Shown in pieces: positions 5,614-48,567 of a DNA stretch of 64,000 bases (positions are counted from its first letter, which is position 1; the number at the start of each line of letters is the position of its first letter). Source of the DNA: a virus; IMG/VR virus record IMGVR_UViG_3300026484_000105, positions 1 through 64,000 of that record; one strand, written 5' to 3'. Position numbers and translations under genes: made by a program. Below the pieces are notes generated by a model. It was not told the DNA's origin. It was given only the letters and a program-made list of their open reading frames with translations, and made no database searches.

Positions 5614-7728
5614 ATGAGTAATATATTTATAAAAGATCTAGAAAATTACAATATCGATATGAAGCCTGTTGCTAAGTACGTCGAACAAGCAACAATATAT
5701 ATTCATAAAGCTACTGGTAAGCCAATTGAAGAATGTAAAAGATTGGTTGCAACGCAACTTAAGAAAAAGGATATAAAAAATCCAATAGTTAAATATAACT
5801 ATAGAAATGATAATGGTGACGTAACAGTTGAGAGTACAACATTAACAAATTATATAGAAGATAATGTAGCTAGCAATCATATTGTTGTTCCATCTATGAC
5901 CGCTTATGTACACCCAACGGTAGATAAATCTCTACATGCTACGTTCCTAGAGAAGAATATTGCCTCTAGAAATAAGGATAAGAAAACAGCCTTTAAATAT
6001 AAACAAGAGGGCAATGCTGTATTGCATGGCCGATACAATACCCTACAGAAAAGTAAAAAGATAGCCAACAATTCCTTATCAGGAGCCTATGCATCAATAT
6101 CAACAATACTTTATAATCCAAGCGCGCACTATTCGTTAACAAGTACAACTAGAACAGCAACTAGTATAGCTAATGCTATAACCGAATCAATGGTTGCAGG
6201 TAATAAACATTTTAGAGAACCAGAAATAGCTTTAAATTATATGTTGTCTACTATAGCTACTGTTGATTATAAGACAGTATCAGATATTATAGATAAGTAT
6301 GGCATACATAAACCTACGACAGGAGAAGTATATGCGTCTATTAGAAGAAGTACTGATTTATACTGGACTAACAAAGAGTATAATAAAAGATATATTGAAC
6401 TACTGGATAAGCTTGATGGAGTTGAAAGAGCTATAATTTTATATACAAATGATTTTTATCATCTTAGAGTTTTTAACGATAAACTAATAAGAGAGTTTAT
6501 TAGTAAACTTTCTAAGAAAGTGACAGGTTATGCTACTGATCCTCTAAAGGTACTTAATGAATCAGAAGAGTTTGTTCTTAACCTAATACATCACATTTGT
6601 GCACCTGACATTAAAGGTAAAAAAGTAAACTATAAAGATATGGTCGGTAGCCATGAATTGGATGCGCTTGGATCAACAGCTCTAAATGTTAACGTGACAT
6701 TAGAAGCGTATGCTGATTTACTTCAGGCATTTTTTAGAAATGATGTTATGCCAGTCAGCGTTGCTTATATCCGAGACATGTTAAGAAGGGTTACAGTTCT
6801 TTCAGATACAGATTCTACTTGTGCTACATATCAAGAATGGGTTGAATGGTATTATGGTGAAATCTTGTTTAGTGATGGTGCTACCGCAGTTAGCGCATCA
6901 GTTATGTCAGTTGTTACGCAGGTACTGGAGCATAAATTAAGACAATACACTAGTAATCTAAACGTCCCTGATGATTTAAAAGATAAAATTACATATAAAG
7001 GTGAATTTTATTGGCATAGCATGACTCCAATGTCAGTTGCCAAACATTATTTTGCAAGCGTTGCAATACAAGAGGGTAACGTGTTCGCTGAAGATGATTT
7101 AGAGCTAAAGGGTGTTAATTTAATTGCTTCAAATGCACCAATGTTTGTGCAAAAAATAACAAAAGAAACAATCATTAATATTAATGAGACTATAACTAGA
7201 AATGAAAAACTTTCTATTAACAAGTATATTAAGATAGCAGCAGATCTTGAAAGACGAATCTTAAAAGAACTTAAATCTGGTAACATTGAAGTTTTAAAGA
7301 TGGGTAAGATAAAAGAAGCTAATGGTTATAAACTTGGTCCAGATAAGTCACCATATATTAATCATATATTTTGGGAAGAGGTTATGTCAATAAAATATGG
7401 GGTAATTGATAAACCACCATATAGTACAGTTAAACTACCGACTACACTTAAATCAAAAAGACTTATGAATGAGTATATTGAAAGTATTGAAGACGAGTCT
7501 TTAAAAGAAAGATTTAAAACCTATTGTGAGAAGTATAATAAGGATACTATAGGTACATTTAATTTACCATTAATTATTGTTGGAGAGCATGGTATTCCAG
7601 AAGACCTACTACCAGTTATTGATAGTGATAGAATAGTGTTTGATTCATTAGGTGCTTTATATATGTGCCTTGAGGGAATTGGATTTTTTAAAAAAGAAGG
7701 CATGAAGATTATAGATATGGGTTATTAG
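5614..7728 (+). CDS. split family-B DNA polymerase, polymerase-domain subunit (phiKZ gp050-like)
   Basis: Motif B QKSKKIANNSLSG, motif C LSDTDS, KHYFA and LELKG; no N-terminal exonuclease motifs. Confidence 0.85.
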   Translation: MSNIFIKDLENYNIDMKPVAKYVEQATIYIHKATGKPIEECKRLVATQLKKKDIKNPIVKYNYRNDNGDVTVESTTLTNYIEDNVASNHIVVPSMTAYVHPTVDKSLHATFLEKNIASRNKDKKTAFKYKQEGNAVLHGRYNTLQKSKKIANNSLSGAYASISTILYNPSAHYSLTSTTRTATSIANAITESMVAGNKHFREPEIALNYMLSTIATVDYKTVSDIIDKYGIHKPTTGEVYASIRRSTDLYWTNKEYNKRYIELLDKLDGVERAIILYTNDFYHLRVFNDKLIREFISKLSKKVTGYATDPLKVLNESEEFVLNLIHHICAPDIKGKKVNYKDMVGSHELDALGSTALNVNVTLEAYADLLQAFFRNDVMPVSVAYIRDMLRRVTVLSDTDSTCATYQEWVEWYYGEILFSDGATAVSASVMSVVTQVLEHKLRQYTSNLNVPDDLKDKITYKGEFYWHSMTPMSVAKHYFASVAIQEGNVFAEDDLELKGVNLIASNAPMFVQKITKETIININETITRNEKLSINKYIKIAADLERRILKELKSGNIEVLKMGKIKEANGYKLGPDKSPYINHIFWEEVMSIKYGVIDKPPYSTVKLPTTLKSKRLMNEYIESIEDESLKERFKTYCEKYNKDTIGTFNLPLIIVGEHGIPEDLLPVIDSDRIVFDSLGALYMCLEGIGFFKKEGMKIIDMGY

Positions 7729-7787: not shown

Positions 7788-8180
7788 CTAATATCGATAT
7801 ATTTTTATATCATTATAACCTAGCTCCAATATAGCGTTCCTTATTATATCAAGATCTGATGTATCGCAGTTAGGTAGGTCTAATCGTATATTTATACTTT
7901 CAACAACTTCAACCGTATTTAAATCAAGCCATTCTAAAGCGAATATAACAGTTTCCTTATCCTCATTTTCAAAGAGAACATAAGTATTGTCATTGGCATT
8001 TTCTGGCAGACCAGGTATAATTGCGGTAAGCTTATTATTTATATCATGTATATCAGCACCATTTTTTATCGCCAACTTAGCTGATATTATGCCCTCAGCC
8101 TTCATCATTGTGAATGACCCACCAAGCACTGTAGGTGCTAGAGTCATAAACTTATATATTTTATTCGGTGTAAAAACCAT
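7788..8180 (-). CDS. conserved phiKZ-like hypothetical protein (gp049-like)
   Basis: YKFMTLAPTVLG motif; position convergent on the polymerase gene as in phiKZ-like phages. Confidence 0.55.
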   Translation of the reverse strand: MVFTPNKIYKFMTLAPTVLGGSFTMMKAEGIISAKLAIKNGADIHDINNKLTAIIPGLPENANDNTYVLFENEDKETVIFALEWLDLNTVEVVESINIRLDLPNCDTSDLDIIRNAILELGYNDIKIYRY

Positions 8181-8595
8181 TTTTAATCTCCTCTTTCATG
8201 ATTGATTCTAGATGACTATTATCATAACTTGTTATGACTATGCCTCTACTGTTTATATTATCTAAATACAATAACGATTCATTTATATGTAACTCTACAA
8301 GCATAAATGTATAATAGTTAAGTATAGAACTTATTAAATGATCTACTTCATTTATTATATATTGATCTACAAGAGTTCCAAATGCGTCAAATACGATTTC
8401 ATTTATTAGCTCATGATGATTATATGTGTATATATCACCTCGTATAAGTTTGTTTGCTGCAGTTAGTGCTGTATCTAATATGTTCTTATAGGTATCATTT
8501 ACTCCATCAAGATGTTTGCTGTTGTCCTTGATCACTCTATATAAGTGCATGTGGTCAGGCGTAATATTTATAAAATATCTTCCATTTACATTCAT
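8161..8595 (-). CDS. hypothetical protein
   Basis: Overlapping-gene operon 7788-11526. Confidence 0.65.
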   Translation of the reverse strand: MNVNGRYFINITPDHMHLYRVIKDNSKHLDGVNDTYKNILDTALTAANKLIRGDIYTYNHHELINEIVFDAFGTLVDQYIINEVDHLISSILNYYTFMLVELHINESLLYLDNINSRGIVITSYDNSHLESIMKEEIKNGFYTE

Positions 8596-36469: not shown

Positions 36470-39400
36470 TTAATTAAAATACATCTCAACCGCTTTATCG
36501 CGTATGATGTTAAGTAATGTACTTGTAGTACCAACAATATTTGGACTACTAACTATCCTAGCGGCTATAGATCTACTGGAAAACATAGCCTCAACTTCTA
36601 TGCCATCTTCGGTTTTTATATCATAATTAAACACATCCCCAATAGTTGTTTTAAGCTGATGTCCAATAATAGCTTTATCACCTACACCCATACCTACTTC
36701 ATCTTTTATGCTAATTTTTATTTCAACATTTCCTTCAGTAAGAGGATTGCCTTTTATAGAGTAAGAGCTATTAACTTTACCAGTTATTGTTTTATTCATA
36801 TTCTCATCAGCAATTAGTTTATTGGAAGCCTTTACTAATTCTTTTAAAGTGGGACTCAGATCCTCTGTATCGCAATTATAATAAACAGTTATCTTAGTTA
36901 TAATGCCACGCATCTTAGCTTTTGGACTTCTATTTTTAATATTTTGTAGAACCTGTAAAGACTCTTTATCGAGATTACGCTTATCTATAAAATCATTACC
37001 ATCACTTATAGTAAATAAAAGATTATTGGGTTCAACCTTATCTTTTAGTTTAACTATATTCAATATTTCATCTGTAGCTTTAACTATGAAACTCTTGGAC
37101 TTAATTATACTAGTACCTAACCTATTAGTCGTCTTTGACGAAATTGTACAAGAATCCTCATATGTTTCAGTATTCTCCATAAGACCAACTTTTACGGTAG
37201 TACCAGTTTTATAAATAACTCTAGTGCTATCAAAAATATCTGGTTCAAAAAACTGTTTGTCGTACGAAATGGTGTTGCCATTCTTAAATACGTCGCCTAC
37301 CTTTAGATCGGTTATAATTGTATGTAAATAAGAAACGCCAGCTTCTTCTTTGGTATTCCACTCACCAAGTTTAACGTTCACTATCTTACCACTTTTATAT
37401 TTTATCTTAATATATGATTTTTTAACCTCCATAACTATACCATCTTCTTTAGCCATATAACAATAGTTCATATCTAGTTTATATGGTAAGATTGCTTCAT
37501 GTCCAGTTCTTACAGCAGGAACCCTCATCTCGCTCATACCTATAGTATGACTATTCTGAATATTAATAAAGTTTACATTATCTTTACATAGATCGTTACT
37601 CTATGCGATACAGTTATAAATATTTAAATCAGTAATTAATTTATAATTACATCTCATAAATAACCCCTATATGTTAATACTGTGTATTCATATAAAGCTT
37701 GTGATTAACCGTATCTCTATGGGATTTCCCCATATGATGAGACTATATCTTCAACCAATGTTATCATCTCATTGGCTGTAAACCATTTCCATTTAAAGGA
37801 TGTCTCCTACCTACATTTAGGCCGTACTCCCAATTGCGGGATAGTCGTTGAACACATACCTTTAATAAGGTACTTCGCTGCGGATCACCAATTACAATCA
37901 CAGTGACATTAATTACAACTAACTACTGATAAGGTAGCCTTGAACATTAACATTTGATCTTGCTGACTACTTAAAGCCATACATATATCTTTTACTATAC
38001 CCTAGTGGTTAGCTAGGCCCCAGACTCTTCATCCTCATGTTACCATGGTCTGGTTAGTGTATATGTCTTTACGGTTTCCCCGTCAATTAGATTTATTTAT
38101 TTTTACAACCATTACTGATTGCCGAAGCTAAAATTAACCTCTTTGGATCATCATTTGTGCTGGCAGGAGCCAATAAGGCACTTGTTGATAGGTAATTTTC
38201 AGGTTTAAGTTTGCCCTTATCAGTATCAACCATACCTCTAACAGTGTTTAATTTCGGACTAGCAGACATATACGCAGATACAGCAACATCACCACTATCT
38301 TTAACTCCCTCTGAAATAACACCTATTTCACTACTATGGATAACCCTTGTGTCCATAGACATACTTTCTTTAGACCTACCTCCAGAACCAAGGAATGTAA
38401 CATCCTCATTTTGCTTAAGCGATGCTATTGGGTTTAGATTATCAACTAACATTGAAGTACTGTCATCATTTATGTCTCTCCAAACTGCAAAAGGAGCCAT
38501 AGTGATCTTAGCCTTAGAAAAGACATTCTTATTTTCAAAATCCCTTATACTCTTAATAAGTTCTGTGTATAACATTCCAGATACACGCTCATAACCTTTT
38601 ATAAGCATTCCGTTGGCATTGTTTGGATTTATATAATTATTATCCAATAATAACTCAGCGGCTCTTATCAATAGCCCCTTAAATGTTTTTGGTTCCTTTA
38701 TGATTTCAAGAATAGATTCGGTTATAGGATCTACAAACATATCTTCCATTAACTTAATCTCATTAACATATAGAGGACTTAAGTCCATGTTATTAAAAAG
38801 TATAGGAAAGGATTCTTTTTTATCTAATAGACCATAATCAATATCCTTAAGTATTTTTGCCATTGTAGTAAACCCACCAAATATTAGAGTAGCTAGTTTA
38901 TCGTTCCTCGTTAACACTATCTTCTTATCCTTGAAGGTAACGACGTACTCATCTGGTTTTAAACTATAACGCTCTGTTCTTTTAAGAACGGTGTGCTTTG
39001 CTCTTAATAATTTTAAAAGACTAGTTATACCAAGATAATATGATAATAGTATAGCTATAGGTAGTCTCTTTTTAAATATCTTTATAACTACTGTTTCTAT
39101 AGGCATGCTAGAAGTATCTATGCCTAACTGTTCAAAAATATTAGGTAACTCTTTTAGTTTAGAACCGTTAGCTTCATACAGATTGTTATCGAAATCCATT
39201 AGAATTGGTAAACTATTAGCTGATGATCCAACAATTACATATTTACCATTTTGTTCTATGATAATGGTTTTAGCCTTAATATTCTTAACAAGATCTCTAC
39301 GATTCTTATAATCAAAGCTATATTTGTTCTTACCTACATTAAACATTCTTATATATTTACCAATATACGCATATAGATTTGGTACTTTTACATCCATTAG

Positions 39401-41191
39401 TTTAACTGGCATTAAAACAACATTGGATATAGTCTTATTAGTTTCCGTACTAGCTATAAGTTTCTTTCTAAACCAAAAACCAATATCATCTTTTTTCATA
39501 TCAGCCTTAGTTATAAATGACTTACCAAAATAACTAGTTAACGCAACCTTATTAGAATCTATCTTTCTTATAGGTTTATCGGTTCTTTGTTTGCGCATTT
39601 TATACGTATTGCCAGAAACTTTAAATTCACCATTTTCATTTATAACAGGAATCTTAAATACTAACTTACTTGGCTTGCCAGTAAGGGGTTTAATATCTAT
39701 AGTATGCGTTTCAACTCCACCCAATACAGTATTGTCTATCTCTACAGTATGGTCTTTTATAACTATATCAGCATTTTGTATAGAGTATATAGTTCTTGTT
39801 ATATCCTTAACAAAAATATTCTTTATATAATGTCTGTCCATAGCTCTTATTGGATTTTTTAATGAGGATTTATCTTTAATTATATTTATATCTGGGATAA
39901 CAGCATCCTCCTCAGGTATCTTTAGATCGCCATCTGTTATAGTAAGTAACTCTTTTAATGATTTACCATCTCCATAAGGCGATTTAGCTCGTTGTTGATG
40001 TTCCAAAGCAGCCTTGAGGTTTTCAGTTTCCTTTTTAGAAAGAAGTTTATTTTCAGACAGTACATCTATCTGTTTATTTAATTTTAATACCTGATCTATA
40101 TCCTCATTCTTTATATCTGATAGAGATTTAAATTCAGATTCTATATCGTCTACAAATTCCTTAGCTGCATCAACAGACATTATCTCATCACTTATCCTAT
40201 TATAATCAATCTCTTGCTCATCTACCTCAAAGTCACTGTTTAAGATCGCATCAGGATCTATAACCTCTTTAGTATCATCCACATCAGTTATGGCATCAAT
40301 ATCTTTATTATCTAGATTATTCTTCAATTCGCCTATAGTCATCGCCCCATTGACAGTTAATTTTTTTAAGAAGATTAGGAACATCTTTCTTAAAGTTTTA
40401 GCATCAACTTTTTGTATAGGACTATGTACATCATATTCCCTAACAGCAGATATCAACTTATATAAATTTAATAATGTTAATTTATTATTATAAACAAACA
40501 TAAGAGTTATATTGTTGGTATTAGATAATTTTACATCATTAAGTAATGATTTCCTTAAAAGTTCAGGTGTTAGATATCTCCATATCTCTAACAGATTCAA
40601 ATGTTTAGGCGTCGGAAAGTGCTCCAATACTAAATGGTTTTCTAATTTGGTATACTTTTCAAAATGAACTACATCAGGTATATTGGCTGGTACCTCTAAC
40701 ATAATATACGTATGTCTTGTATTCGTACTTAAAACCGATAGTTGTTCAGTCATGGTTTTGAATGCATTTCTCCATTTGTGATATTGCATCATTGGGTTAG
40801 GTCTGTAATGATGTACTGCATTTAAAGCTCCATAGTTATAAATTAGTAGTGTATTTTTAGATACCTTTAAAGTTTTATATAATGGATTTAAAAACTTAAT
40901 ATTGAGATTATTCTTTTTAAAATCCTTTATTATGTTCTTTATCTTTAATGTTTTAAAGTTAAAATTACCTATAGGCGATTTATATTCATATATAGTAGCT
41001 ATTATAGGTTTGCTTGAATTTTTTAAATAACCTAAATCTAAAGATGGGCATACTGGTACATCACTTACCTTAAACCATACTAATTCAGAGTTTTTTGGGA
41101 ACACCATTTCCGTATCTAAAATTATATTCGGATTAATGAATTGGTTTATTTTACGAACGCCAACACTTCTATACAGTTGATCATGTGTCAT
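36470..41191 (-). CDS. virion RNA polymerase beta subunit (phiKZ gp178-like), spliced: exon 1 41191-38137, exon 2 37575-36470, 1386 aa
   Basis: Splicing gives DDPKRLNFINIQNSH..VRTG; also GSGGRS, GVISEGVKDSGDV, TYEDS, GVGDK...QLKT. Confidence 0.9.
37576..38136 (-). ncRNA. group I self-splicing intron (561 nt, no ORF)
   Basis: 5' exon ends in U, intron ends in G. P1 GAGGU/GCUUC with U-G wobble; P2 CAAUCA-GUAA-UGGUUG; P AAUUGACGGGGAAA; Q GAUCCGCAGCG; R GUUCAACGACUAU; S AAGAUAUAGUC. Frame is restored. Confidence 0.93.
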
Positions 41192-41287: not shown

Positions 41288-42604
41288 ATGAATAAAACAT
41301 TTAAAACGATAAAGTCATCAGTAGGTAAACATAGCTATAATTTTCTAGCATTGCCAGATACTAAAGCTTTTAAAATAGAAGTAGTATTTGATTACGGTTC
41401 TAACTTAGAAAACCATTATTATAAAAAGTACGGTAAGAAGGTATTTGGTATAAGTCACCTTACAGAACATTTGTGTTTTAAATCTCCTGTTGGTTATGAT
41501 AGCGATAAATTGCTTGCCGAATTAAAAAAGAAAGGTAATAGGAATGCCAGTACTGGCCCAACACACATTAACTATTTCTTTAATACTATCATGGAGAATA
41601 TGGAATTCGGTATAGATGCAATTACTAAAGTAGCATTTAATGATTTTAGTAGAATAACTGATGAAGAGTTTGAATCTGAAAAATCAGTGGTTATGTCTGA
41701 AGTTGGCAGATACAATGATGATAAGCAAACTATGTTTAGTCTAAACACTAAGAACGCCTTAATGGGTACTGATAAAGATGATAACATTCTTGGTAGTGTT
41801 GAGATCTTAAAAGATGTTACTCTTGATGATTGTAAAAAGATCAGAGCGTTAACATTACAAGAAGCTAAGGTATGGTTTAACATAACATATGATCCAATGG
41901 AATATGTTAATGAAGATGATGTCATTGAACATATTGAAAGAGTACTAGATGACATTGATATAGTACAACAAGATGTTTCTATTGGTAGATATGAATATTA
42001 TAAACCAATTACTATTAAGAAAGATGAAATTGTTTTACCATCTGAATCTGATCGTACAATCATTAATCTTGTATTTGAAACTGATACTAACGTATGGGTT
42101 AGAAGCATGATAAACTATTATGTTTCTGCACTTGCTGATGAAACATCTCTTTACAATACAATCAGAGATAGACATGGTTTAACATATGGCGTTACATTCG
42201 GTAAAGATGATATTATGAACGTTGATCATACTAGATTAGTTGTTGATGTTGCTCCAGATAAAATCGATCTTACTATGGAACTTATAGAAGAAGTTATGGT
42301 TAAAAGTAGTGGGAAATTCAATAGAGAAATATTCGAAGAACTTATGGCCAATAGAAAGTTGAACATCACTATAGAGAGATGTAATCCAAAAACATATGGT
42401 TTCTTATTTAATACTGAAGTAGATCATCCTGAATTACTTGCTCCATTTAAAGATGTACTCGAAGACAACATTTCAAGTATAGATGAAATATTTGATGATA
42501 AATACATCACATTTGAAGCTGCAAAACAATATATGAACGAATTAGTAGAAATAACTAAATCTAAATCATATAGTAAGGTTATAAGTGAAAAAATAAAAGA
42601 TTAG
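41288..42604 (+). CDS. M16 family (insulinase-like) zinc peptidase
   Basis: GISHLTEHLCF (HxxEH), RNAST, EKSVVMSE, IRDRHGLTYGV. Confidence 0.88.
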   Translation: MNKTFKTIKSSVGKHSYNFLALPDTKAFKIEVVFDYGSNLENHYYKKYGKKVFGISHLTEHLCFKSPVGYDSDKLLAELKKKGNRNASTGPTHINYFFNTIMENMEFGIDAITKVAFNDFSRITDEEFESEKSVVMSEVGRYNDDKQTMFSLNTKNALMGTDKDDNILGSVEILKDVTLDDCKKIRALTLQEAKVWFNITYDPMEYVNEDDVIEHIERVLDDIDIVQQDVSIGRYEYYKPITIKKDEIVLPSESDRTIINLVFETDTNVWVRSMINYYVSALADETSLYNTIRDRHGLTYGVTFGKDDIMNVDHTRLVVDVAPDKIDLTMELIEEVMVKSSGKFNREIFEELMANRKLNITIERCNPKTYGFLFNTEVDHPELLAPFKDVLEDNISSIDEIFDDKYITFEAAKQYMNELVEITKSKSYSKVISEKIKD

Positions 42605-42636
42605 CATACAGTATAGCTTTTGCTATACTGTATGTT
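42603..42636. terminator. palindromic hairpin between convergent genes
   Basis: AGCATACAGTATAGC-TTTT-GCTATACTGTATGTT. Confidence 0.8.
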
Positions 42637-43610
42637 TAACATACGCCAAGTAAAGTATTTAACTCTATCTCGTTTGATTCCACATTCACAATATAATGTA
42701 ATTGTCTGGGGTTAACATCTTTATTTTCCTCATAGAACTTAACTATAGCCTTATGTAAATCAGTTGTACCTTTTAGCTCATCTAAACTATTAGTATAATC
42801 ATTCTGCTCGCCAGTTAAAGGTAGTTGTTTATACTTCTTAATATATGCACAATCATCTACGTTATGTACTACATTTGTTTCTCCTCTACGTACAACCTTG
42901 TCCATTTTAACCTTGTATTTATGCCAATTAGGACCTTGAACCTTACCATGGATTAAAGCTTCTAATTCTAGATTATCTAATTTAAAAGGTTTCTTACTTT
43001 CAACAACAGCAACAACCAAGTCGTAATCTATGTTCTTATGTAACCTGACCAGAGATTGATCTGATAATTTAGAAGCTATTTCTTCACCATCGATATTTTC
43101 TAAAGGATAGCCATTAAAGTTGACACCTAAGTTTTCATGATGTATGATCATTCCTTTTGGTTTTACCACATTTTGCTCCTCATCTTTATCATCACTGTCT
43201 TTATTTCCATTTATAATAGTAAATTTCATACTGCCATTGGCAACACTCCATTCCTTATTGATAGGTCTGCAATCAGTACAACCTACATCAATAATTCTAT
43301 ATTGATTATATGATCCAAAGCCATAATAGTACTTATTACCATTCTCGTCTACAAGTACCACCCCTGTTTCTAATGCTTCTGCTAACTCGCCCGCATCCTT
43401 TAAAACTATCTTATCTTCAACCTCCATTTCCTTTACAGAATTGTAGATTTTACTGTCTTTAGGCAAATAGTCTAAGATAATATCTTTTTCCAAAGCTACT
43501 ATTTCAGGGTTTGTTCCCTTTACATATTCTTCAACTAGTTCAGAATCATGATACTCTGCATTATTATATCTTTCTAAGATATCAATTTTTAAATCTTCTT
43601 TAACGCTCAT
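42636..43610 (-). CDS. hypothetical mosaic protein
   Basis: 324-aa ORF with AAGGA SD. Confidence 0.7.
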   Translation of the reverse strand: MSVKEDLKIDILERYNNAEYHDSELVEEYVKGTNPEIVALEKDIILDYLPKDSKIYNSVKEMEVEDKIVLKDAGELAEALETGVVLVDENGNKYYYGFGSYNQYRIIDVGCTDCRPINKEWSVANGSMKFTIINGNKDSDDKDEEQNVVKPKGMIIHHENLGVNFNGYPLENIDGEEIASKLSDQSLVRLHKNIDYDLVVAVVESKKPFKLDNLELEALIHGKVQGPNWHKYKVKMDKVVRRGETNVVHNVDDCAYIKKYKQLPLTGEQNDYTNSLDELKGTTDLHKAIVKFYEENKDVNPRQLHYIVNVESNEIELNTLLGVC

Positions 43611-43759
43611 TTTAATCCTTTATATGTATGATTGAGAATCCTCAGTAAGTTTAATTCTCTTGACTTTTTCTAATATATCTGGAATCAATATTTCATTAAC
43701 ATATTTCCATTTACAATCACCGTTAGAATAAACATCTATTGTTATATGTAACCTAGATA

Positions 43760-44248
43760 TTATTCTGTTCTCCAATTAGTTATGAAAGATGAAAACATTC
43801 CACCATTTGCTACAATGATACTCAGCATAAGTTTTATCTCAATGACAATCGTACCTCTTTCCAATATATCTCTTCTATAGCCAACCGAATAATCTGTTAC
43901 AATAGTATCCTGCATTAATGCTTGATTGTATATTGGAGCCTGTACGGACGCTGCATGTACGTACAATTCAAATGGTGTTGCTTTACATACATCTATTAAG
44001 AATCTTTCACCGCCATTACCATCTCCATCTTCCTTATACTCCTCCCTTAATTTATAGTTGTTGTCAAAGATTCTACTTAACTTATTATCAGAAGCAATAA
44101 AATCTCTAACTTCCTCCAGATCCATAAAATTAACTACAGTTTTGCCACAACAATTACATTCAATAAGTGATTCAGTACTAATAGGGTTATTGATACCCTC
44201 TTCATTTATATCATCACTACAACATACTGGGCATACTAAATATTTCAT
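43760..44248 (-). CDS. hypothetical protein with N-terminal zinc ribbon
   Basis: CPVCCS...CNCCGK. Confidence 0.65.
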   Translation of the reverse strand: MKYLVCPVCCSDDINEEGINNPISTESLIECNCCGKTVVNFMDLEEVRDFIASDNKLSRIFDNNYKLREEYKEDGDGNGGERFLIDVCKATPFELYVHAASVQAPIYNQALMQDTIVTDYSVGYRRDILERGTIVIEIKLMLSIIVANGGMFSSFITNWRTE

Positions 44249-44314
44249 AACGCATCCTTTTTTACTAATGGTTTGACTACTGATTTATCTACTTCTTTAT
44301 AACTGTGTTAGACA

Positions 44315-44857
44315 TTACGAACTTAATGCATTATGGCTGTCATAAACTATATCTTTAAATTCTGGATCAGTTGCTATCTGTACATGTCGATCAGATTCAA
44401 TCTGACATGGTTCCAGTTCTATTTTAATGTTGTTATCAGAATTAAACTCAGTATCCACTTTAAGCAAGTCTAATTGCACTAGTAGTTCTCTAGTATCATT
44501 AACATAAGTTATACCATCTCCATGTATGAACATGCTTGTATTTTTAACATCATGACCAAGTACAAAGATCTTCTTCAGTTTACCTTGTCCTAATCTTGCA
44601 GTAGCATATCCTAATTCATAGAACATACCAACACCTCTATTGCCATTATAGAGCATAATGAATACGTCGCTATCATCAATAGCTTTAATGTCTTCCATAG
44701 CCTGCTTATTACAAATCTCAATATGTTCGCTAAATGGTTTACAGTCCAAATGTTTAGACCAGTCAATACTACATTTATGGCCCTTCTCTTCTAATGTTTC
44801 TTTCAAGATACGAAATGCTGATGTGTCTTGGGACTTAGCTGCTAAATAAAATTTCAT
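44315..44857 (-). CDS. nucleoside 2-deoxyribosyltransferase-like protein
   Basis: MKFYLA, DIKAIDDSDVFI, GMFYELGYA. Confidence 0.8.
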   Translation of the reverse strand: MKFYLAAKSQDTSAFRILKETLEEKGHKCSIDWSKHLDCKPFSEHIEICNKQAMEDIKAIDDSDVFIMLYNGNRGVGMFYELGYATARLGQGKLKKIFVLGHDVKNTSMFIHGDGITYVNDTRELLVQLDLLKVDTEFNSDNNIKIELEPCQIESDRHVQIATDPEFKDIVYDSHNALSS

Positions 44858-44951: not shown

Positions 44952-47900
44952 CTACCAACTTAATGTTTTAGCTACAATATCAATTACAGTATTAGATGCA
45001 GAATACGTTAGATTACCCTCAGGGGTTATATAAAAACTTCTTTTTCTAAAAGTTTCATGTAATTCATCTATGGCTTCTTTTGTATGTAATATTACATATG
45101 AGCATTTATCACCATCAACGTTGCCTTCATCCGTATCGTTACTACGAACAGTTCTCTTATGAACTTCTCTAGCTCTCACTAGAAGACGAGACTATATCAT
45201 GCTCTTCTGACACTATATCAGTAAGAGCCAAACCACTTCGATTTAAGCACTAGGTACGTGCACCCACTTGGGCCCTACTCCCCGCTACAGGATAGTCGTT
45301 GAACTTTACCCATATTATTTTTTAATAACTTAGGGTCTTAGCTGCTAAAGGGAACCTTAGGTTCCACGGTTACCTATTATACTATTATAGTGCTGATATT
45401 CATAAACATTTAGTTAGTTACTCTAAACTAAAATATCGAGGCTATATTAATATTAATCACTTAAGATCATCCATACAAGATACAATACTGTATCCCAGTA
45501 GCTTTGCAACTACTCTTGTTAAACCATCATAGACTAGTTTCCTGCCTATTGTGGTGGTATAGCTTTAAGGCTTTCCAGCAATTCAATTTGTTATTCGACA
45601 TGCTTCTCAACATGAAGGATCAATTTGTTCTTTAACTTAAATTTAACAACATCTTTTGGACTCGTGTCCATGGGCAACTTCTCACCCTTACATAAATCAA
45701 GTATATTCCGATAATACTTGTTATTAACAACATACATTTTCTCTTTACACAGCATATAAGTTAGATATTCTTCTATGTTCTTTAGCTTAGTAAACGGTAT
45801 CCTTATAAGAGGGATCTTATTCATTTTAGCTAAATGGTTCTTTTCGGCATCAGACTTCTTCTGTATTTTGAATGCTTTCTCGCCACCAAAGAACTTTACA
45901 GGTTTGAAATGTTGTATACCATCAAATTCTATTAGAATATTTAATTCTGGTAGATAGAAGTCATACATGTATCTATTTTCATTAAGCCGATAATTCTTGA
46001 TGTAATCAATCTTATTAAGTTCCAAAAATATACGTATACGTTGCTCACCTTTAGATTCGCTACATAACGGACACCCAGCTTGTTTATGTATATGGTCATC
46101 AGGCGTAATTCTAAATTCACCATGTTTTTTACAAATTAATGTAACCTTAGTTTTCTTATTTGTATAATTAACCATACTATAATCATATCTAGAACCGTGT
46201 AAATTTATAGCCTTCTCTATCCATTCTTTAGTAGTGTAGTTATAATTATTAGTACATTTAACACACTTAGCCCCATTATAATGGTTCCATGGAATTTGTT
46301 CGAAATCACCATGTACCCTACATCTTATAGTAACCTTATTTTTTGAATTTATATATTTAGTTTTACTATAATCATATAGATCACCATGAACCTTTCTCGA
46401 ACGTTCTATAAATTCTTCTGTAGTTAATGTATCCTGTTCTACCCTACTTACGATACCGCATTGTTTACAGCCACTACCAGATATATGATGAAATCTGTTT
46501 TGTGTAAACTCACCATGTATCGGACAGATGATTTTTATACTACCATCCTTAACGCTATAGCTTTCTGGTATATATAAATACTTACCATTATGCACTTTAT
46601 TAGCTTTATCAATGAACTTCTTGGCCTTAGATAGAATCTTATTAATAGGAGTTATATAAGCGCATTTGGGACATCCCTGTCCTTTTATATGTTTAGTTGG
46701 TTTTTGCTTAAACGGACCGTGTTCTTTACACTGTATAGTTACTGCAGTCCTTGCATCTATGAATTCAACTAATGTATAATTGTACCTATTACCGTGTGCT
46801 TCATGGGCCTTTAATAAGAAGGTTTCTTTTGTCATTCTTAATTTATCTTTAGCACATTCTCTACACCCTTGTTTATTCCGTATATGTGAAAATGGTCTTT
46901 GTTTAAAATCACCATGTATCGGACATGTGATTATTAGTGGTACGTCAGATAGTATGTACTCTGTTTTGTCGTACCTGTATTTGTTGTTATGTACTTCTTT
47001 GGCTTTCTTTATAAAAGCTTCTGTTTTTGTTGTTTTCATTTTTTTCCTATTAGTTTATGTATGTAAATAATATGCGTTTATTATCTATTTCACTCTAATA
47101 GTACCCGTAAAAAAATCAATCTGCGCCTAATAAATTTAGGTGGGTGAAGTGGGGTGATAACGAGTTCTGGTATGCCTCTGTTAATATCGGATATTCATAA
47201 ACCGTATCAGCCTCTTTCCAATCTACTCCTAAAATGCTAACTTTTCTAGCCTTAACTGTTGTTTTTAGATAAGGTATACTTGGATATATTCCACCTAGAC
47301 CAGTAACAGGGTATCTAGTAAGAAAGCCAGGATATTTATCAACATCTTCATATACAGCTAAGTATATAAGTTCTGCATATGTTATCGGTCTTAAATATTT
47401 GGTATTTATATCATCAGGTATTTCATTAGTATTCTTAATAAACTTAACCTCTTTACCATTATCATATATTAAGGCTAGATAATAATCCTCAACAGTTATA
47501 GGTTCAGATCTTAATTCATCTTGAGCTAATTTATTTATAACTCCATTAAGTCCTTCATCAGATGTCCACATGTCTTTTGTTTTTGGTTTTATATCTACAT
47601 TTACTGTTCTCATAGATTTTTTATCTACAAGCATAGCTGTATTACTATGTAAATCAAATATGTTATTTAACATAAGATTATTTAACTGGTACTTAGTAAT
47701 GGGATTGATAGCTTTAGCATATTGATATAAACCTATAACAGTATTATTAAAACTAATTCTATTTTTAGTATTAGTTAAATCATGTATTACTGATGGTACT
47801 GGTGTGATGACATTTCTGGTAGAATCTCTAAGAGCTCTCTTAGTCCACTTATTTTGTATAAATTTCTTCTTACCATCCATTAAAGAAATATAATGATCGT

Positions 47901-48567
47901 ATATCTCAACTATGATAGTTTGTATCTTAAATCTTATTGGATCTAATACCATAGGATCGTTATGTAGAGTAGAGATGTTTTCTAATGCATTTGTTGTGGT
48001 TAGTAGCCTCCTATAAACAGCATTTATTTCATCTTCACTTGGCTTACCATTATCATCAACAATATAATCCCTTAGTCCAGCAGGTATGACTAAAAAGTGA
48101 TCTATGAGTATTTCACCCTTACTATATTTTTTAATAAGCTTTATTTTAAATTCCCTGGCATCACTACCATTACTATTTAATTTAATTTTATCATACTTTT
48201 TCATAAAGAATTCGAAACCAGTATCTCCTTCTTCTGCATTAGAGGAAATGAAATCTCCACCTTTTTCATCCCATTTTGCATAAGTCTTACCAGATAGTAT
48301 ATCTAAATATAACTTTTTTAAACTTGAGATATGTTTAAAGACAAGTGGGTGTAGAACCTTTATATGTAATTTTATATAACCGAATTTATTATTCCGTTCT
48401 TCACTTCCGACCCGACCGAAAGTCTCAGTAGAGAATAAACCATTAGTACTGAAGTTTTTAGTAGATGGTTCAAATATACTTAGGTCACTTACTTCCCTCA
48501 TTACACCTATCTGTTTTCTATTTAATAATAGTAAATCTATATTAAAAGGTGGTAAATTTGACAGCAT
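44952..48567 (-). CDS. virion RNA polymerase beta' catalytic subunit (phiKZ gp180-like), spliced: exon 1 48567-47118, exon 2 45118-44952, 538 aa
   Basis: GLFSTETFG, VIPAGLRD, TRNVIT, TRYPV; GAT T + TT GAT GGT GAT restores LGADFDGD. Confidence 0.93.
45119..47117 (-). mobile_element. group I intron (1999 nt) carrying a homing endonuclease
   Basis: U at the 5' splice site, terminal G. P1 GAUU/GAUU pairs with AAUUGAUC (45618-45625); P2 CAUGUU-GAGA-AGCAUG; P AAUUGCUGGAAA; Q UUAGCAGCUAAG; R GUUCAACGACUAU (45292-45304); S AUGAUAUAGUC (45190-45200). Confidence 0.93.
45591..47039 (-). CDS. intron-encoded homing endonuclease: 5 Zn-binding repeats (DUF723-like) plus Vsr/EDxHD-type nuclease domain
   Basis: Five F/W-I/L..A/S...H...Y.Y...C..HG.F......H....C..C repeats; C-terminal ESKGE, YDFYLP, IEFDGIQHF, SDAEKN, LIRIP. 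Confidence 0.85.
   Translation of the reverse strand: MKTTKTEAFIKKAKEVHNNKYRYDKTEYILSDVPLIITCPIHGDFKQRPFSHIRNKQGCRECAKDKLRMTKETFLLKAHEAHGNRYNYTLVEFIDARTAVTIQCKEHGPFKQKPTKHIKGQGCPKCAYITPINKILSKAKKFIDKANKVHNGKYLYIPESYSVKDGSIKIICPIHGEFTQNRFHHISGSGCKQCGIVSRVEQDTLTTEEFIERSRKVHGDLYDYSKTKYINSKNKVTIRCRVHGDFEQIPWNHYNGAKCVKCTNNYNYTTKEWIEKAINLHGSRYDYSMVNYTNKKTKVTLICKKHGEFRITPDDHIHKQAGCPLCSESKGEQRIRIFLELNKIDYIKNYRLNENRYMYDFYLPELNILIEFDGIQHFKPVKFFGGEKAFKIQKKSDAEKNHLAKMNKIPLIRIPFTKLKNIEEYLTYMLCKEKMYVVNNKYYRNILDLCKGEKLPMDTSPKDVVKFKLKNKLILHVEKHVE

What the first reader, a model, noticed from the sequence alone, without database searches (positions are those of the whole stretch)
45119..47117. Group I intron inserted inside the catalytic DFDGD motif of the virion RNA polymerase
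Exon 1 ends GGC GCA GAT T, followed at once by an in-frame TGA. The intron ends ...GGCAACG and exon 2 begins TT GAT GGT GAT. Splicing rebuilds the Phe codon and the three Mg-binding Asp residues; the unspliced product has only the first Asp and would be inactive. Introns in phiKZ-like non-virion RNAP genes are known. An endonuclease-bearing intron at the active site of the packaged vRNAP makes progeny infectivity depend on a ribozyme and leaves almost no room for imprecise loss.
Basis: seen in the sequence. Interest (0 to 1): 0.9.

Follow-up and report, generated by a model that had tools for sequence, protein, structure and literature searches.

The report
Self-splicing intron in phage polymerase gene
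A self-splicing group I intron carrying its own homing endonuclease gene splits the catalytic Asp motif of a giant phage's virion RNA polymerase gene; the call is correct, but the same motif is already known to be intron-occupied in phage phiKZ, and it is interrupted in a quarter to almost half of the relatives surveyed.

Summary
On the minus strand, exon 1 (48567-47118) ends GAT T. An in-frame TGA straddles the 5' splice site. The 1999-nt intron (47117-45119) ends in G, and exon 2 (45118-44955) starts TT GAT GGT GAT. Joining the exons gives a 538-aa protein that aligns without a gap to uninterrupted homologues.

Support for a group I intron:
- Rfam RF00028 matches at E=9e-9, although its 42.5 bits is below the gathering score of 50.
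- The helices P1, P2, P3, P4, P8 and P9 covary with four homologous introns.
- A 79%-identical relative carries the same intron with the endonuclease gene deleted.

The gene is the orthologue of phiKZ gp180 and sits between gp181-like and gp178-like genes. The intron ORF encodes five zinc-ribbon (DUF723) modules plus a Vsr-like nuclease resembling I-Bth0305I. It lies in the P1 loop, and its last codons encode the internal guide sequence and P2.

Novelty is low. The phiKZ gp179/gp180 intron sits 1 nt away and is published, and virion polymerase introns are known in PhiPA3, 201phi2-1, AR9 and MarsHill. About 20 of 80 IMG/VR loci and 54 of 119 protein clusters are interrupted in this motif, at five or more positions.

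Splicing itself was not tested. Other first-reader notes of this scan flag this same stretch.

The parts
47118..48567 (-). Exon 1 of the virion RNAP beta'-N gene (phiKZ gp180 orthologue). It encodes 483 codons plus the first base of the Phe codon and ends GAT T.
   Evidence: PHROG 2986 profile positions 3-484, E=4e-164. 36% identity over the full length to phiKZ gp180, E=4e-105.
47116..47118 (-). In-frame TGA that straddles the 5' splice site (U-1, G+1, A+2). It releases ribosomes from unspliced RNA.
45119..47117 (-). Group I intron, 1999 nt. The 5' splice site follows U47118 and the terminal G (omega-G) is at 45119.
47113..47121 (-). P1 5' strand: exon GAUU (47121-47118) plus intron GAUUU (47117-47113).
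   Evidence: Read. It pairs with 45618-45626. The exon/guide pair covaries in relatives.
45591..47039 (-). Homing endonuclease ORF (482 aa, P0002), located in the P1 loop. AGGA lies 7 nt upstream of the ATG. Residues ~1-327 form five Zn-ribbon (DUF723-type) modules. Residues ~328-445 form a Vsr-like nuclease. The last ~11 codons overlap the guide sequence and P2.
45618..45626 (-). Internal guide sequence, P1 3' strand. GAUC (45621-45618) pairs with exon GAUU including the U.G wobble at the splice site. AAAUU (45626-45622) pairs with intron bases +1 to +5. It lies inside the endonuclease ORF.
   Evidence: Relatives whose exon ends GACU have GGUC here.
45599..45614 (-). P2 hairpin of 6 bp with a GAGA (GNRA) loop. 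It also lies inside the ORF's last codons.
   Evidence: four of the six pairs change on both sides across 5 sequences. U.G in the window becomes C-G in L006.
45585..45590 (-). P3 5' strand (CAAAUU).
   Evidence: Pairs with 45229-45234. All 6 pairs are kept in 5 introns, and 4 positions covary (read from the alignment).
45575..45580 (-). P4 5' strand (UGCUGG), followed by J4/5 AAA. It pairs with 45343-45348.
   Evidence: Read. The fourth pair is U-A in the window and L006, and G-C in L010 and L008.
45349..45574 (-). Large P5 region, about 225 nt. It contains the P5 stem (45568-45571 with 45372-45375) and peripheral hairpins, including a covarying hairpin with a UUAAGU loop.
   Evidence: columns 178-193 and 282-296. 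This insertion explains the sub-threshold Rfam score.
45293..45297 (-). P7 5' strand (GACUA), preceded by the conserved GUUCAAC. It pairs with 45190-45194 (UAGUC).
   Evidence: It is invariant in all 5 introns.
45235..45292 (-). P7.1/P7.2 stem-loops between P7 and the P3 3' strand. Calling this a subgroup IA feature rests on recall and was not checked.
45229..45234 (-). P3 3' strand (GGUUUG).
45201..45228 (-). P8 stem-loop.
   Evidence: C-G in the window becomes U-A in L006..
45120..45189 (-). P9 (45168-45183), P9.1 and P9.2 hairpins, and the 3' tail ending in omega-G.
   Evidence: two U-A pairs of P9 become C-G in L006, and the P9.2 stem is wholly different in sequence but still pairs..
44955..45118 (-). 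Exon 2: the last two bases of the Phe codon plus 54 codons (DGDKCSY...TLSW). The stop is at 44952-44954.
   Evidence: PHROG 2986 profile positions 486-537.

Best explanation
This is a mobile group I intron in the gene for the N-terminal half of the beta' subunit of a phiKZ-like phage's virion-packaged RNA polymerase. It sits between base 1 and base 2 of the Phe codon of the Mg-binding motif ADFDGD.

Inferred course of events:
1. The pre-mRNA folds so that exon bases GAUU plus the first five intron bases pair with a guide sequence about 1.5 kb downstream. This forms P1, with the U.G wobble at the splice site.
2. A canonical core (P3-P4-P5-P6, P7, P8, P9, with extra P7.1/P7.2 stems) then catalyses the two guanosine-initiated transesterifications.
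3. The terminal G at 45119 marks the 3' splice site. Ligation yields a 538-aa protein with an intact DFDGD.
4. Unspliced RNA gives a 483-aa product that stops at the TGA on the splice site and has only the first Asp.

The P1 loop holds a 482-aa homing endonuclease gene: five zinc-ribbon DNA-binding modules followed by a Vsr-like (I-Bth0305I / EDxHD-type) nuclease. Its last codons double as the guide sequence and P2. During co-infection the enzyme would cut intron-less alleles at the conserved DFDGD-coding DNA and drive copying of the intron.

Shown here: the junction, homology, RNA covariation, the nuclease fold, and a natural endonuclease-deleted derivative. Inferred: splicing, endonuclease activity and target, and virion packaging.
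For: Junction and frame.

Profile contiguity: PHROG 2986 positions 3-484 and 486-537.

Ribozyme:
- Rfam RF00028, E=9e-9.
- The core shares 78-91% DNA identity with introns in L006, L008, L010 and L011, which are inserted at the same base.
- RNAalifold on these five sequences gave 75 pairs, 30 of them with compensatory changes.
- P1 covaries with the exon: exon GAUU pairs with guide GAUC in the window and L006, and exon GACU pairs with GGUC in L008, L010 and L011.
- P3 is kept 6/6 in all five introns, with four covarying positions.
- P8, P9 and P9.2 show compensatory changes between the window and L006.

Natural deletion: L006 keeps intron positions 3-120 and 1456-1999. It has lost 1335 nt of the ORF and its ATG is now ATA, yet it retains the ORF's last codons, which carry the guide and P2.

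Exon 2 cannot start on its own in L006: there is no in-frame start codon after the last stop.

Orthology: 36% identity to phiKZ gp180 over the full length. Neighbours are a 2491-aa gp181-like tail protein on the opposite strand and a gp178-like beta gene downstream. There is no match to any PDB chain.

Endonuclease:
- PHROG 559, 681 and 9084; Pfam DUF723.
- Invariant E, D, ExD, H, D and K residues across 42 homologues.
- The AF2 model has mean pLDDT 89.4.
- The best structural matches are I-Bth0305I (3r3p, Z 11.1, rmsd 2.8 A over 94 of 97 residues) and Vsr (1cw0, Z 11.0).
Against:
- The Rfam score of 42.5 is below the gathering score of 50. The near-identical L005/L006 intron got no Rfam hit in larger searches.
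- ONT-cappable-seq of phiKZ did not detect splicing of its gp179 intron (PMC10914365), so even the model phage lacks direct evidence in the papers I read.
- I found no convincing P10 pairing with exon 2.
- The P5 region is unusually large and only partly modelled.
- The contig is about 41% complete, so a second intact gene copy elsewhere is not excluded.
Confidence: 0.9

Rival explanations
1. A decayed, non-splicing intron relic. The gene would be a pseudogene, or the 483-aa truncated product would be all that is made.
For: The Rfam score is below the gathering threshold. There is no Rfam hit for the relative's copy. There is no splicing evidence for the phiKZ counterpart in PMC10914365.
Against: Compensatory changes in P1, P2, P3, P4, P8 and P9 across five introns show selection on the RNA fold. 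Exon 2 is conserved and in register with the family profile. The ORF-deleted relative kept exactly the ribozyme parts. DFDGD is indispensable in multisubunit RNA polymerases (established knowledge).
Confidence: 0.05
2. A gene split by a free-standing endonuclease cassette. The two halves would be translated separately and assemble without RNA splicing.
For: Jumbo-phage RNAP genes are naturally split into several polypeptides (PMC7598289). An in-frame GTG at 45179 lies upstream of exon 2.
Against: The split falls inside a codon, and the flanks obey the U(-1) and terminal-G rule. A ribozyme core lies between the halves. In L006 no in-frame start codon precedes exon 2. A 54-aa fragment would carry two of the three catalytic Asp residues.
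Confidence: 0.02
3. The host gene encodes the non-virion RNAP beta' subunit, or another paralogue, rather than the virion enzyme.
For: Virion packaging was not tested. Both polymerase sets share the DFDGD fold.
Against: Full-length similarity to phiKZ gp180, which the record annotates as a structural head protein. gp181/gp180/gp178-type synteny. tblastn finds one place per phage record (314 places in 313 records), so the paralogue is not hit. There is no sequence match to any PDB chain; by recall the phiKZ and AR9 non-virion enzymes are deposited there.
Confidence: 0.03

Closest known systems
phiKZ gp180 / gp179 group I intron (NC_004629)
   Same: Same orthologous gene and same motif. gp180 ends ...PLGAD*. 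It is followed by an endonuclease ORF (gp179), an Rfam group I match of 92 bits, and an exon 2 that begins FDGDTVSF. The intron is cited as known in PMC11512511 and PMC10914365.
   Different: By the U(-1) and terminal-G rule the phiKZ junction is GAU|UUC, 1 nt upstream of the window's GAU U|UU. The phiKZ endonuclease is an HNH_3 protein, not DUF723/Vsr-like. Only short core segments are alike at the DNA level.
PhiPA3 gp210 intron in the virion RNAP beta gene gp211/209 (Birkholz et al. 2024, PMC11620839)
   Same: A mobile group I intron with a homing endonuclease at conserved Asp codons of a virion RNAP subunit in a phiKZ-like phage. Homing-type nicking and a competitive effect on a co-infecting phage were shown experimentally.
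   Different: A different subunit (beta, the gp178 homologue) and an HNH nicking enzyme. The window has its own ORF-less intron in that beta gene as well.
I-Bth0305I, the EDxHD / Vsr-like homing endonuclease family (PMC3239194, PDB 3r3p)
   Same: An intron-encoded phage enzyme with a C-terminal Vsr-like nuclease domain. It is the best structural match to the window's nuclease domain (Z 11.1, 94 of 97 residues). The acidic and His residues are invariant.
   Different: I-Bth0305I has two NUMOD2/HTH motifs at its N-terminus and its ORF sits in P5. The window's enzyme has five DUF723 zinc-ribbon modules and sits in the P1 loop. There is no detectable sequence match to 3r3p.
Intron-split RNAP genes of AR9, the MarsHill-like Staphylococcus jumbo phages and 201phi2-1
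   Same: Virion and non-virion RNAP subunit genes are reported as frequently intron-disrupted (bioRxiv 10.1101/2020.12.14.422802, citing Lavysh 2016). 201phi2-1 has an intron in its virion RNAP beta-N gene, supported by two spliced reads (PMC11512511).
   Different: I did not map the insertion sites in those phages, so site identity with the window is unknown.

Membership tests
Group I intron (Rfam RF00028) | The 5' exon ends in U, which forms a U.G wobble with an internal guide sequence (P1). | tested here: met
   U47118 pairs with G45621 in a 9-bp P1 (4 exon and 5 intron pairs). The exon/guide pair covaries in homologous introns: U:A in the window and L006, C:G in L008, L010 and L011.
Group I intron (Rfam RF00028) | The intron ends in G (omega-G). 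| tested here: met
   G45119. This is the only junction that obeys the U/G rule and gives the top HMM score across the motif.
Group I intron (Rfam RF00028) | A conserved catalytic core: P3-P4-P5-P6, the P7 pseudoknot and P8. | tested here: met
   P3, P4, P6/P6a, P7 (GACUA/UAGUC, invariant), P8 and P9 are located. There are 30 compensatory pairs in a 5-sequence alignment. Further compensatory changes separate the window from L006.
Group I intron (Rfam RF00028) | The score reaches Rfam's curated gathering threshold. | tested here: inconclusive
   42.5 bits against 50, with E=9e-9. The model failed to align P3 because about 225 nt of P5 extension separate the P3/P4 5' strands from the rest of the core. 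Related introns at this motif score 52-92 bits.
Group I intron (Rfam RF00028) | Guanosine-dependent self-splicing. | not testable with these tools
EDxHD / Vsr-like homing endonucleases (I-Bth0305I type) | A Vsr-like nuclease fold. | tested here: met
   AF2 model with pLDDT 89.4. 3r3p_A: Z 11.1, rmsd 2.8 A, 94 aligned. 1cw0_A: Z 11.0. 1vsr: Z 10.3. Foldseek ranks 3r3p first, but at E=0.011.
EDxHD / Vsr-like homing endonucleases (I-Bth0305I type) | A conserved composite catalytic motif (E, D, H, D). | tested here: inconclusive
   E, D, ExD, H, D and K are invariant in 42 homologues. I did not map them residue by residue onto the I-Bth0305I active site.
EDxHD / Vsr-like homing endonucleases (I-Bth0305I type) | Site-specific cleavage of the intron-less allele. 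| not testable with these tools
   Needs a cleavage assay.
phiKZ gp180-type virion RNAP beta'-N subunit | Full-length homology to gp180 and a DFDGD motif near the C-terminus. | tested here: met
   36% identity, E=4e-105. PHROG 2986. DFDGD is restored in the joined product.
phiKZ gp180-type virion RNAP beta'-N subunit | Conserved neighbourhood: a divergent gp181-like giant tail protein and a downstream gp178-like beta gene. | tested here: met
phiKZ gp180-type virion RNAP beta'-N subunit | The protein is present in virions. | not testable with these tools
   Inferred from orthology only.

The most novel reading that the evidence does not exclude
The 15 bases that encode D-F-D-G-D in the virion RNAP beta' gene may be a contested landing pad for several independent intron/endonuclease lineages. 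I infer at least five insertion positions within those bases. Two unrelated endonuclease classes use them: HNH_3, and zinc-ribbon plus Vsr-like. Some phages carry two ribozymes in tandem in the motif, and occupancy is 25-45%. In the window's lineage the guide sequence and P2 lie inside the endonuclease ORF. Translating the endonuclease and folding P1 on the same RNA molecule would therefore exclude each other, and deletions of the ORF must spare its last codons, as seen in L006. I found no paper that describes the site in these terms: a full-text search for DFDGD with 'group I intron' and 'phage' returned nothing.
Probability: 0.5. Interest if true: 0.5.

Novelty: new member of a known kind. 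Interest (0 to 1): 0.33.

Why it matters
For annotation, the gene should be recorded as one spliced 538-aa virion RNAP beta'-N subunit plus an intron-encoded endonuclease, not as a truncated polymerase plus orphan ORFs. The phiKZ RefSeq record itself annotates gp180 only up to the GAD stop.

For biology, this adds a second endonuclease class to the introns known to target virion RNAP genes of phiKZ-like phages. One such intron was recently shown to act as a weapon between co-infecting phages (PMC11620839). The survey suggests the DFDGD codons are a recurrent target. It offers natural endonuclease-plus, endonuclease-minus and intron-minus alleles for homing and competition experiments.

The finding does not change any concept. 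Active-site targeting by mobile introns and intron-split jumbo-phage polymerase genes are both established.

Tried and rejected
1. My first guess for the guide sequence was GAUCU at 45463-45467, just upstream of Rfam's 'P2'. I rejected it. In relatives that segment is the 5' arm of a hairpin that covaries with its own 3' arm (columns 178-193), and it does not track the exon sequence.
2. RNAalifold paired the P4 5' strand with the intron's 3' tail, and an AGCU segment with the P4 3' strand. I prefer the canonical P3/P4 assignment, because P3 covaries at four positions when anchored on the conserved GAA and AAGU flanks.
3. Megablast of the region against phage records found no match.
4. phmmer of exon 1 and of the endonuclease against PDB sequences found nothing meaningful.
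5. Rfam found no hit over the whole relative locus L005, nor over L006 in a multi-locus call. The whole-window Rfam scan also missed a 63.9-bit intron that a narrow scan found. I therefore treat absence in wide scans as a filter effect.
I could not fetch DNA for the closest protein hits, including the nearest intron-less allele P0008. I used IMG/VR loci instead.
The P3 and P4 pair counts are therefore read by eye from the alignment and were not computed by that tool.
9. I looked for a P10 pairing between exon 2 and the bases 5' of the guide and found none convincing.
10. The junctions of L040, L079 and L012 stayed ambiguous.
Full report
ANATOMY. The gene lies on the minus strand. The ORF 48567..47116 translates to 483 aa ending LNLLGAD. 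Its last bases read GGC GCA GAT T, and the stop TGA spans 47118-47116. Downstream, the sequence GGCAACG ends at 45119. From 45118 the sequence reads TT GAT GGT GAT AAA, which translates as DGDKCSY...TLSW up to a stop at 44954-44952. Joining 47118 to 45118 gives an in-frame CDS of 538 codons with LLGADFDGDKCSY across the junction.

THE TWO PIECES ARE ONE GENE. PHROG 2986 ('RNA polymerase beta subunit') matches exon 1 at profile positions 3-484 (E=4e-164). It matches exon 2, taken from DGD, at positions 486-537 of 539. The single missing position is the split Phe codon. In a MAFFT alignment with 120 database homologues, the joined protein aligns without a gap to uninterrupted proteins of 530-560 aa. 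An example is P0008, at 538 aa and 64% identity. I enumerated all junctions that follow a U and end in a G, and scored each product with an HMM of the C-terminal region. The stated junction scored best, at 99.9 bits against 89.7 for the runner-up.

THE HOST GENE IS THE VIRION POLYMERASE SUBUNIT.
- Exon 1 is 36% identical to phiKZ gp180 over its full length (E=4e-105). The phiKZ record annotates gp180 as an RNA polymerase subunit and structural head protein.
- The neighbourhood matches phiKZ gp181-gp180-(gp179)-gp178. A divergent 2491-aa ORF matches tail-fibre and tail-lysozyme PHROGs, and a beta gene matching PHROG 3148 lies downstream. Phabio shows the same order with an uninterrupted 550-aa gene.
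- tblastn finds one place per phage record (314 places in 313 records), so the non-virion paralogue is not picked up. No PDB chain matches by sequence.
- Packaging into virions is inferred from this orthology only.

THE INSERT IS A GROUP I INTRON. Rfam RF00028 matches 45167-45455(-) at 42.5 bits, with E=9e-9 locally and 1.8e-7 for the whole window. This is below the gathering score of 50. Comparative data are stronger.
- An IMG/VR contig (L005/L006) whose exon 1 is 79% identical has an intron at the same base (GAT T|AA ... AACG|TT GAT).
- Three more distant phages (L008, L010, L011) have introns at the same position. Their cores are 78-80% identical to the window's.
- RNAalifold on these five sequences predicts 75 pairs, and 30 of them keep pairing through changes on both sides.

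THE HELICES. I read these from the alignment and from the sequence.
- P1. Exon GAUU (47121-47118) plus intron GAUUU pair with AAAUUGAUC (45626-45618), and U47118 pairs with G45621 as a wobble. Where relatives have exon GACU, the guide reads GGUC, so this pair is compensated between exon and intron.
- P2 (45614-45599). A 6-bp hairpin with a GNRA loop, in which four of the six pairs covary.
- P3 (45590-45585 with 45234-45229). All six pairs are kept in all five introns, although four positions differ among them.
- P4 (45580-45575 with 45348-45343). It has one compensatory change.
- P6/P6a, followed by the invariant GUUCAAC-GACUA ... GAUAUAGUC segments. These form P7 and match the Rfam consensus.
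- Two stem-loops between P7 and the P3 3' strand. From recall this P7.1/P7.2 arrangement is a subgroup IA feature; I did not test that.
- P8, P9 and two further 3' hairpins.
Between the window and L006, which differ at about 9% of positions, P8 changes C-G to U-A and P9 changes two U-A pairs to C-G. The P9.2 stem has a wholly different sequence yet still pairs. About 225 nt of peripheral structure sit inside P5. This separates the P3/P4 5' strands from the rest of the core, and Rfam left P3 unaligned. That explains the low score.

THE ENDONUCLEASE. The 482-aa ORF (47039-45591) starts 78 nt into the intron, with AGGA 7 nt upstream of its ATG.
- It matches endonuclease PHROGs 559, 681 and 9084 (E down to 6e-88) and Pfam DUF723. 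It also gives sub-threshold hits to a treble-clef zinc finger and to DUF559.
- The sequence shows five repeats of a Cys/His zinc-ribbon module.
- Its C-terminal part has 450 database homologues, several of which JGI names 'very-short-patch-repair endonuclease'.
- In 42 aligned homologues the residues E, D, ExD, H, D and K are invariant.
- An AF2 model of residues 310-482 has mean pLDDT 89.4.
- Its best structural matches are the I-Bth0305I catalytic domain (3r3p: Z 11.1, rmsd 2.8 A, 94 of 97 residues) and E. coli Vsr (Z 11.0 and 10.3).
It is therefore a Vsr-like (EDxHD-type) homing endonuclease with a zinc-ribbon array in place of the NUMOD2/HTH modules described for I-Bth0305I (PMC3239194).

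THE ORF SITS IN THE P1 LOOP. Its last eleven or so codons (KLILHVEKHVE) encode the guide sequence and P2. The relative L006 shows what is dispensable. It keeps intron positions 3-120 and 1456-1999, lacks the 1335 nt in between, and has ATA in place of the ATG. The ribozyme survives and the endonuclease gene is dead, which is the expected late stage of a homing cycle. Two other close relatives keep an endonuclease. P0123 lies on the contig of P0004 and P0125 on the contig of P0005, judged by matching contig lengths. In L006 no in-frame start codon lies between the last stop and exon 2. This argues against separate translation of the two halves.

COMPARISON WITH WHAT IS KNOWN. phiKZ gp180 itself ends PLGAD*. 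It is followed by gp179 (HNH_3), a 92-bit Rfam group I match, and an exon beginning FDGDTVSF. By the U/G rule the phiKZ junction is GAU|UUC, one base upstream of the window's. The phiKZ introns are cited as known (gp56, gp72, gp179; RNAP genes gp55 and gp180) in PMC11512511 and PMC10914365. The latter did not detect splicing by ONT-cappable-seq. PhiPA3 carries a studied HNH intron in its virion RNAP beta gene (PMC11620839). 201phi2-1 has one in its beta-N gene, with two spliced reads (PMC11512511). AR9 and MarsHill-like phages are described as having many intron-split virion and non-virion RNAP genes (bioRxiv 10.1101/2020.12.14.422802). The logic of targeting active-site codons is reviewed in PMC12908238.

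SURVEY. Among the 119 best protein-cluster representatives, 54 end in or just after the motif. Another 58 run through it, and 7 run through it and carry an extra C-terminal HNH_3 region. Among 80 IMG/VR loci, about 20 are interrupted there. The inferred junctions fall at these positions:
- after GAU: phiKZ, L021, L024, L031, L048, L067, L077;
- after GAU U: the window, L006, L007, L008, L010, L011;
- after GAC UU: L041;
- after GGU: L013, L054;
- in L030 and L037, two tandem Rfam ribozyme matches lie within the motif.
Fourteen loci with an insertion at this motif (including phiKZ and the window) have an Rfam group I match at it, ten of them at or above the gathering score. Endonucleases at GAU U| are DUF723-type. 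Those found at the other positions are HNH_3. The motif is thus a recurrent target of at least two intron/endonuclease lineages. I found no paper stating this, but my search covers only open-access texts.

LIMITS. No RNA or protein evidence could be obtained. The contig is about 41% of a genome, so a second copy is not excluded, although the 110-kb record holds only one.

VERDICT. This is a correct and precisely located call of a mobile group I intron. It is a new member of a known kind, with modest added value from the endonuclease type, the guide-in-ORF arrangement and the hot-spot survey.

Noticed in passing
window 37576-38146 (-), between ORFs 38093-41191 and 36470-37537: A second, ORF-less group I intron (Rfam 63.9 bits at 37717-38146) splits the virion RNAP beta gene, the gp178 homologue. 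The two ORFs match PHROG 3148 at profile positions 3-1056 and 1071-1420. The break lies near the position of phiKZ gp178 D1072, where the PhiPA3 gp210 intron sits (PMC11620839). Both large virion RNAP subunit genes in this window are therefore intron-split.
   Followed up: partly
window, whole: The whole-window Rfam scan at E<=0.01 did not report the 63.9-bit intron at 37717-38146, although a 900-nt scan did. Wide Rfam scans lose real group I introns in this AT-rich DNA.
   Followed up: yes
L030 5966-6285 and 6352-6632; L037 6102-6402 and 6479-6774: Two tandem group I ribozyme matches (64-80 bits each) lie inside the interrupted DFDGD region of the same gene in two IMG/VR phages. This implies two introns a few bases apart with a micro-exon between them.
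   Followed up: partly
L067 8885-9306; L077 10169-10443: Further group I matches lie about 2-3 kb downstream of the gp180-like gene in these loci, presumably in the next polymerase gene.
   Followed up: no
proteins P0029, P0032, P0059, P0071, P0074, P0086, P0091: These gp180 homologues of 684-710 aa run through an intact DFDGD and the normal C-terminal region. Five of the seven (P0029, P0032, P0071, P0086, P0091) carry an HNH_3 domain; P0059 has no Pfam hit and P0074 only PF04997. This may be read-through into another intron ORF at a different site, or a fused endonuclease.
   Followed up: no
window 41288-44857: Four ORFs lie between the gp180-like and gp178-like genes and match no PHROG family at E<=1e-5: 44315-44857(-), 43760-44248(-), 42636-43610(-) and 41288-42604(+). 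phiKZ has no such genes at this place.
   Followed up: partly
L003 (phiKZ NC_004629) 8161-8367 (-): The RefSeq record annotates gp180 only up to the GAD stop (490 aa). The roughly 55-codon exon 2 (FDGDTVSF...) is left unannotated between gp179 and gp178.
   Followed up: yes
window 47060-47075 (-); L006 ~6005-6020: An AT-rich ATATTAT-like motif lies about 35-40 nt upstream of the endonuclease ATG, inside the intron. It resembles the early-promoter motif (TATATTAT) reported in another note of this scan, so the endonuclease may have its own promoter.
   Followed up: no
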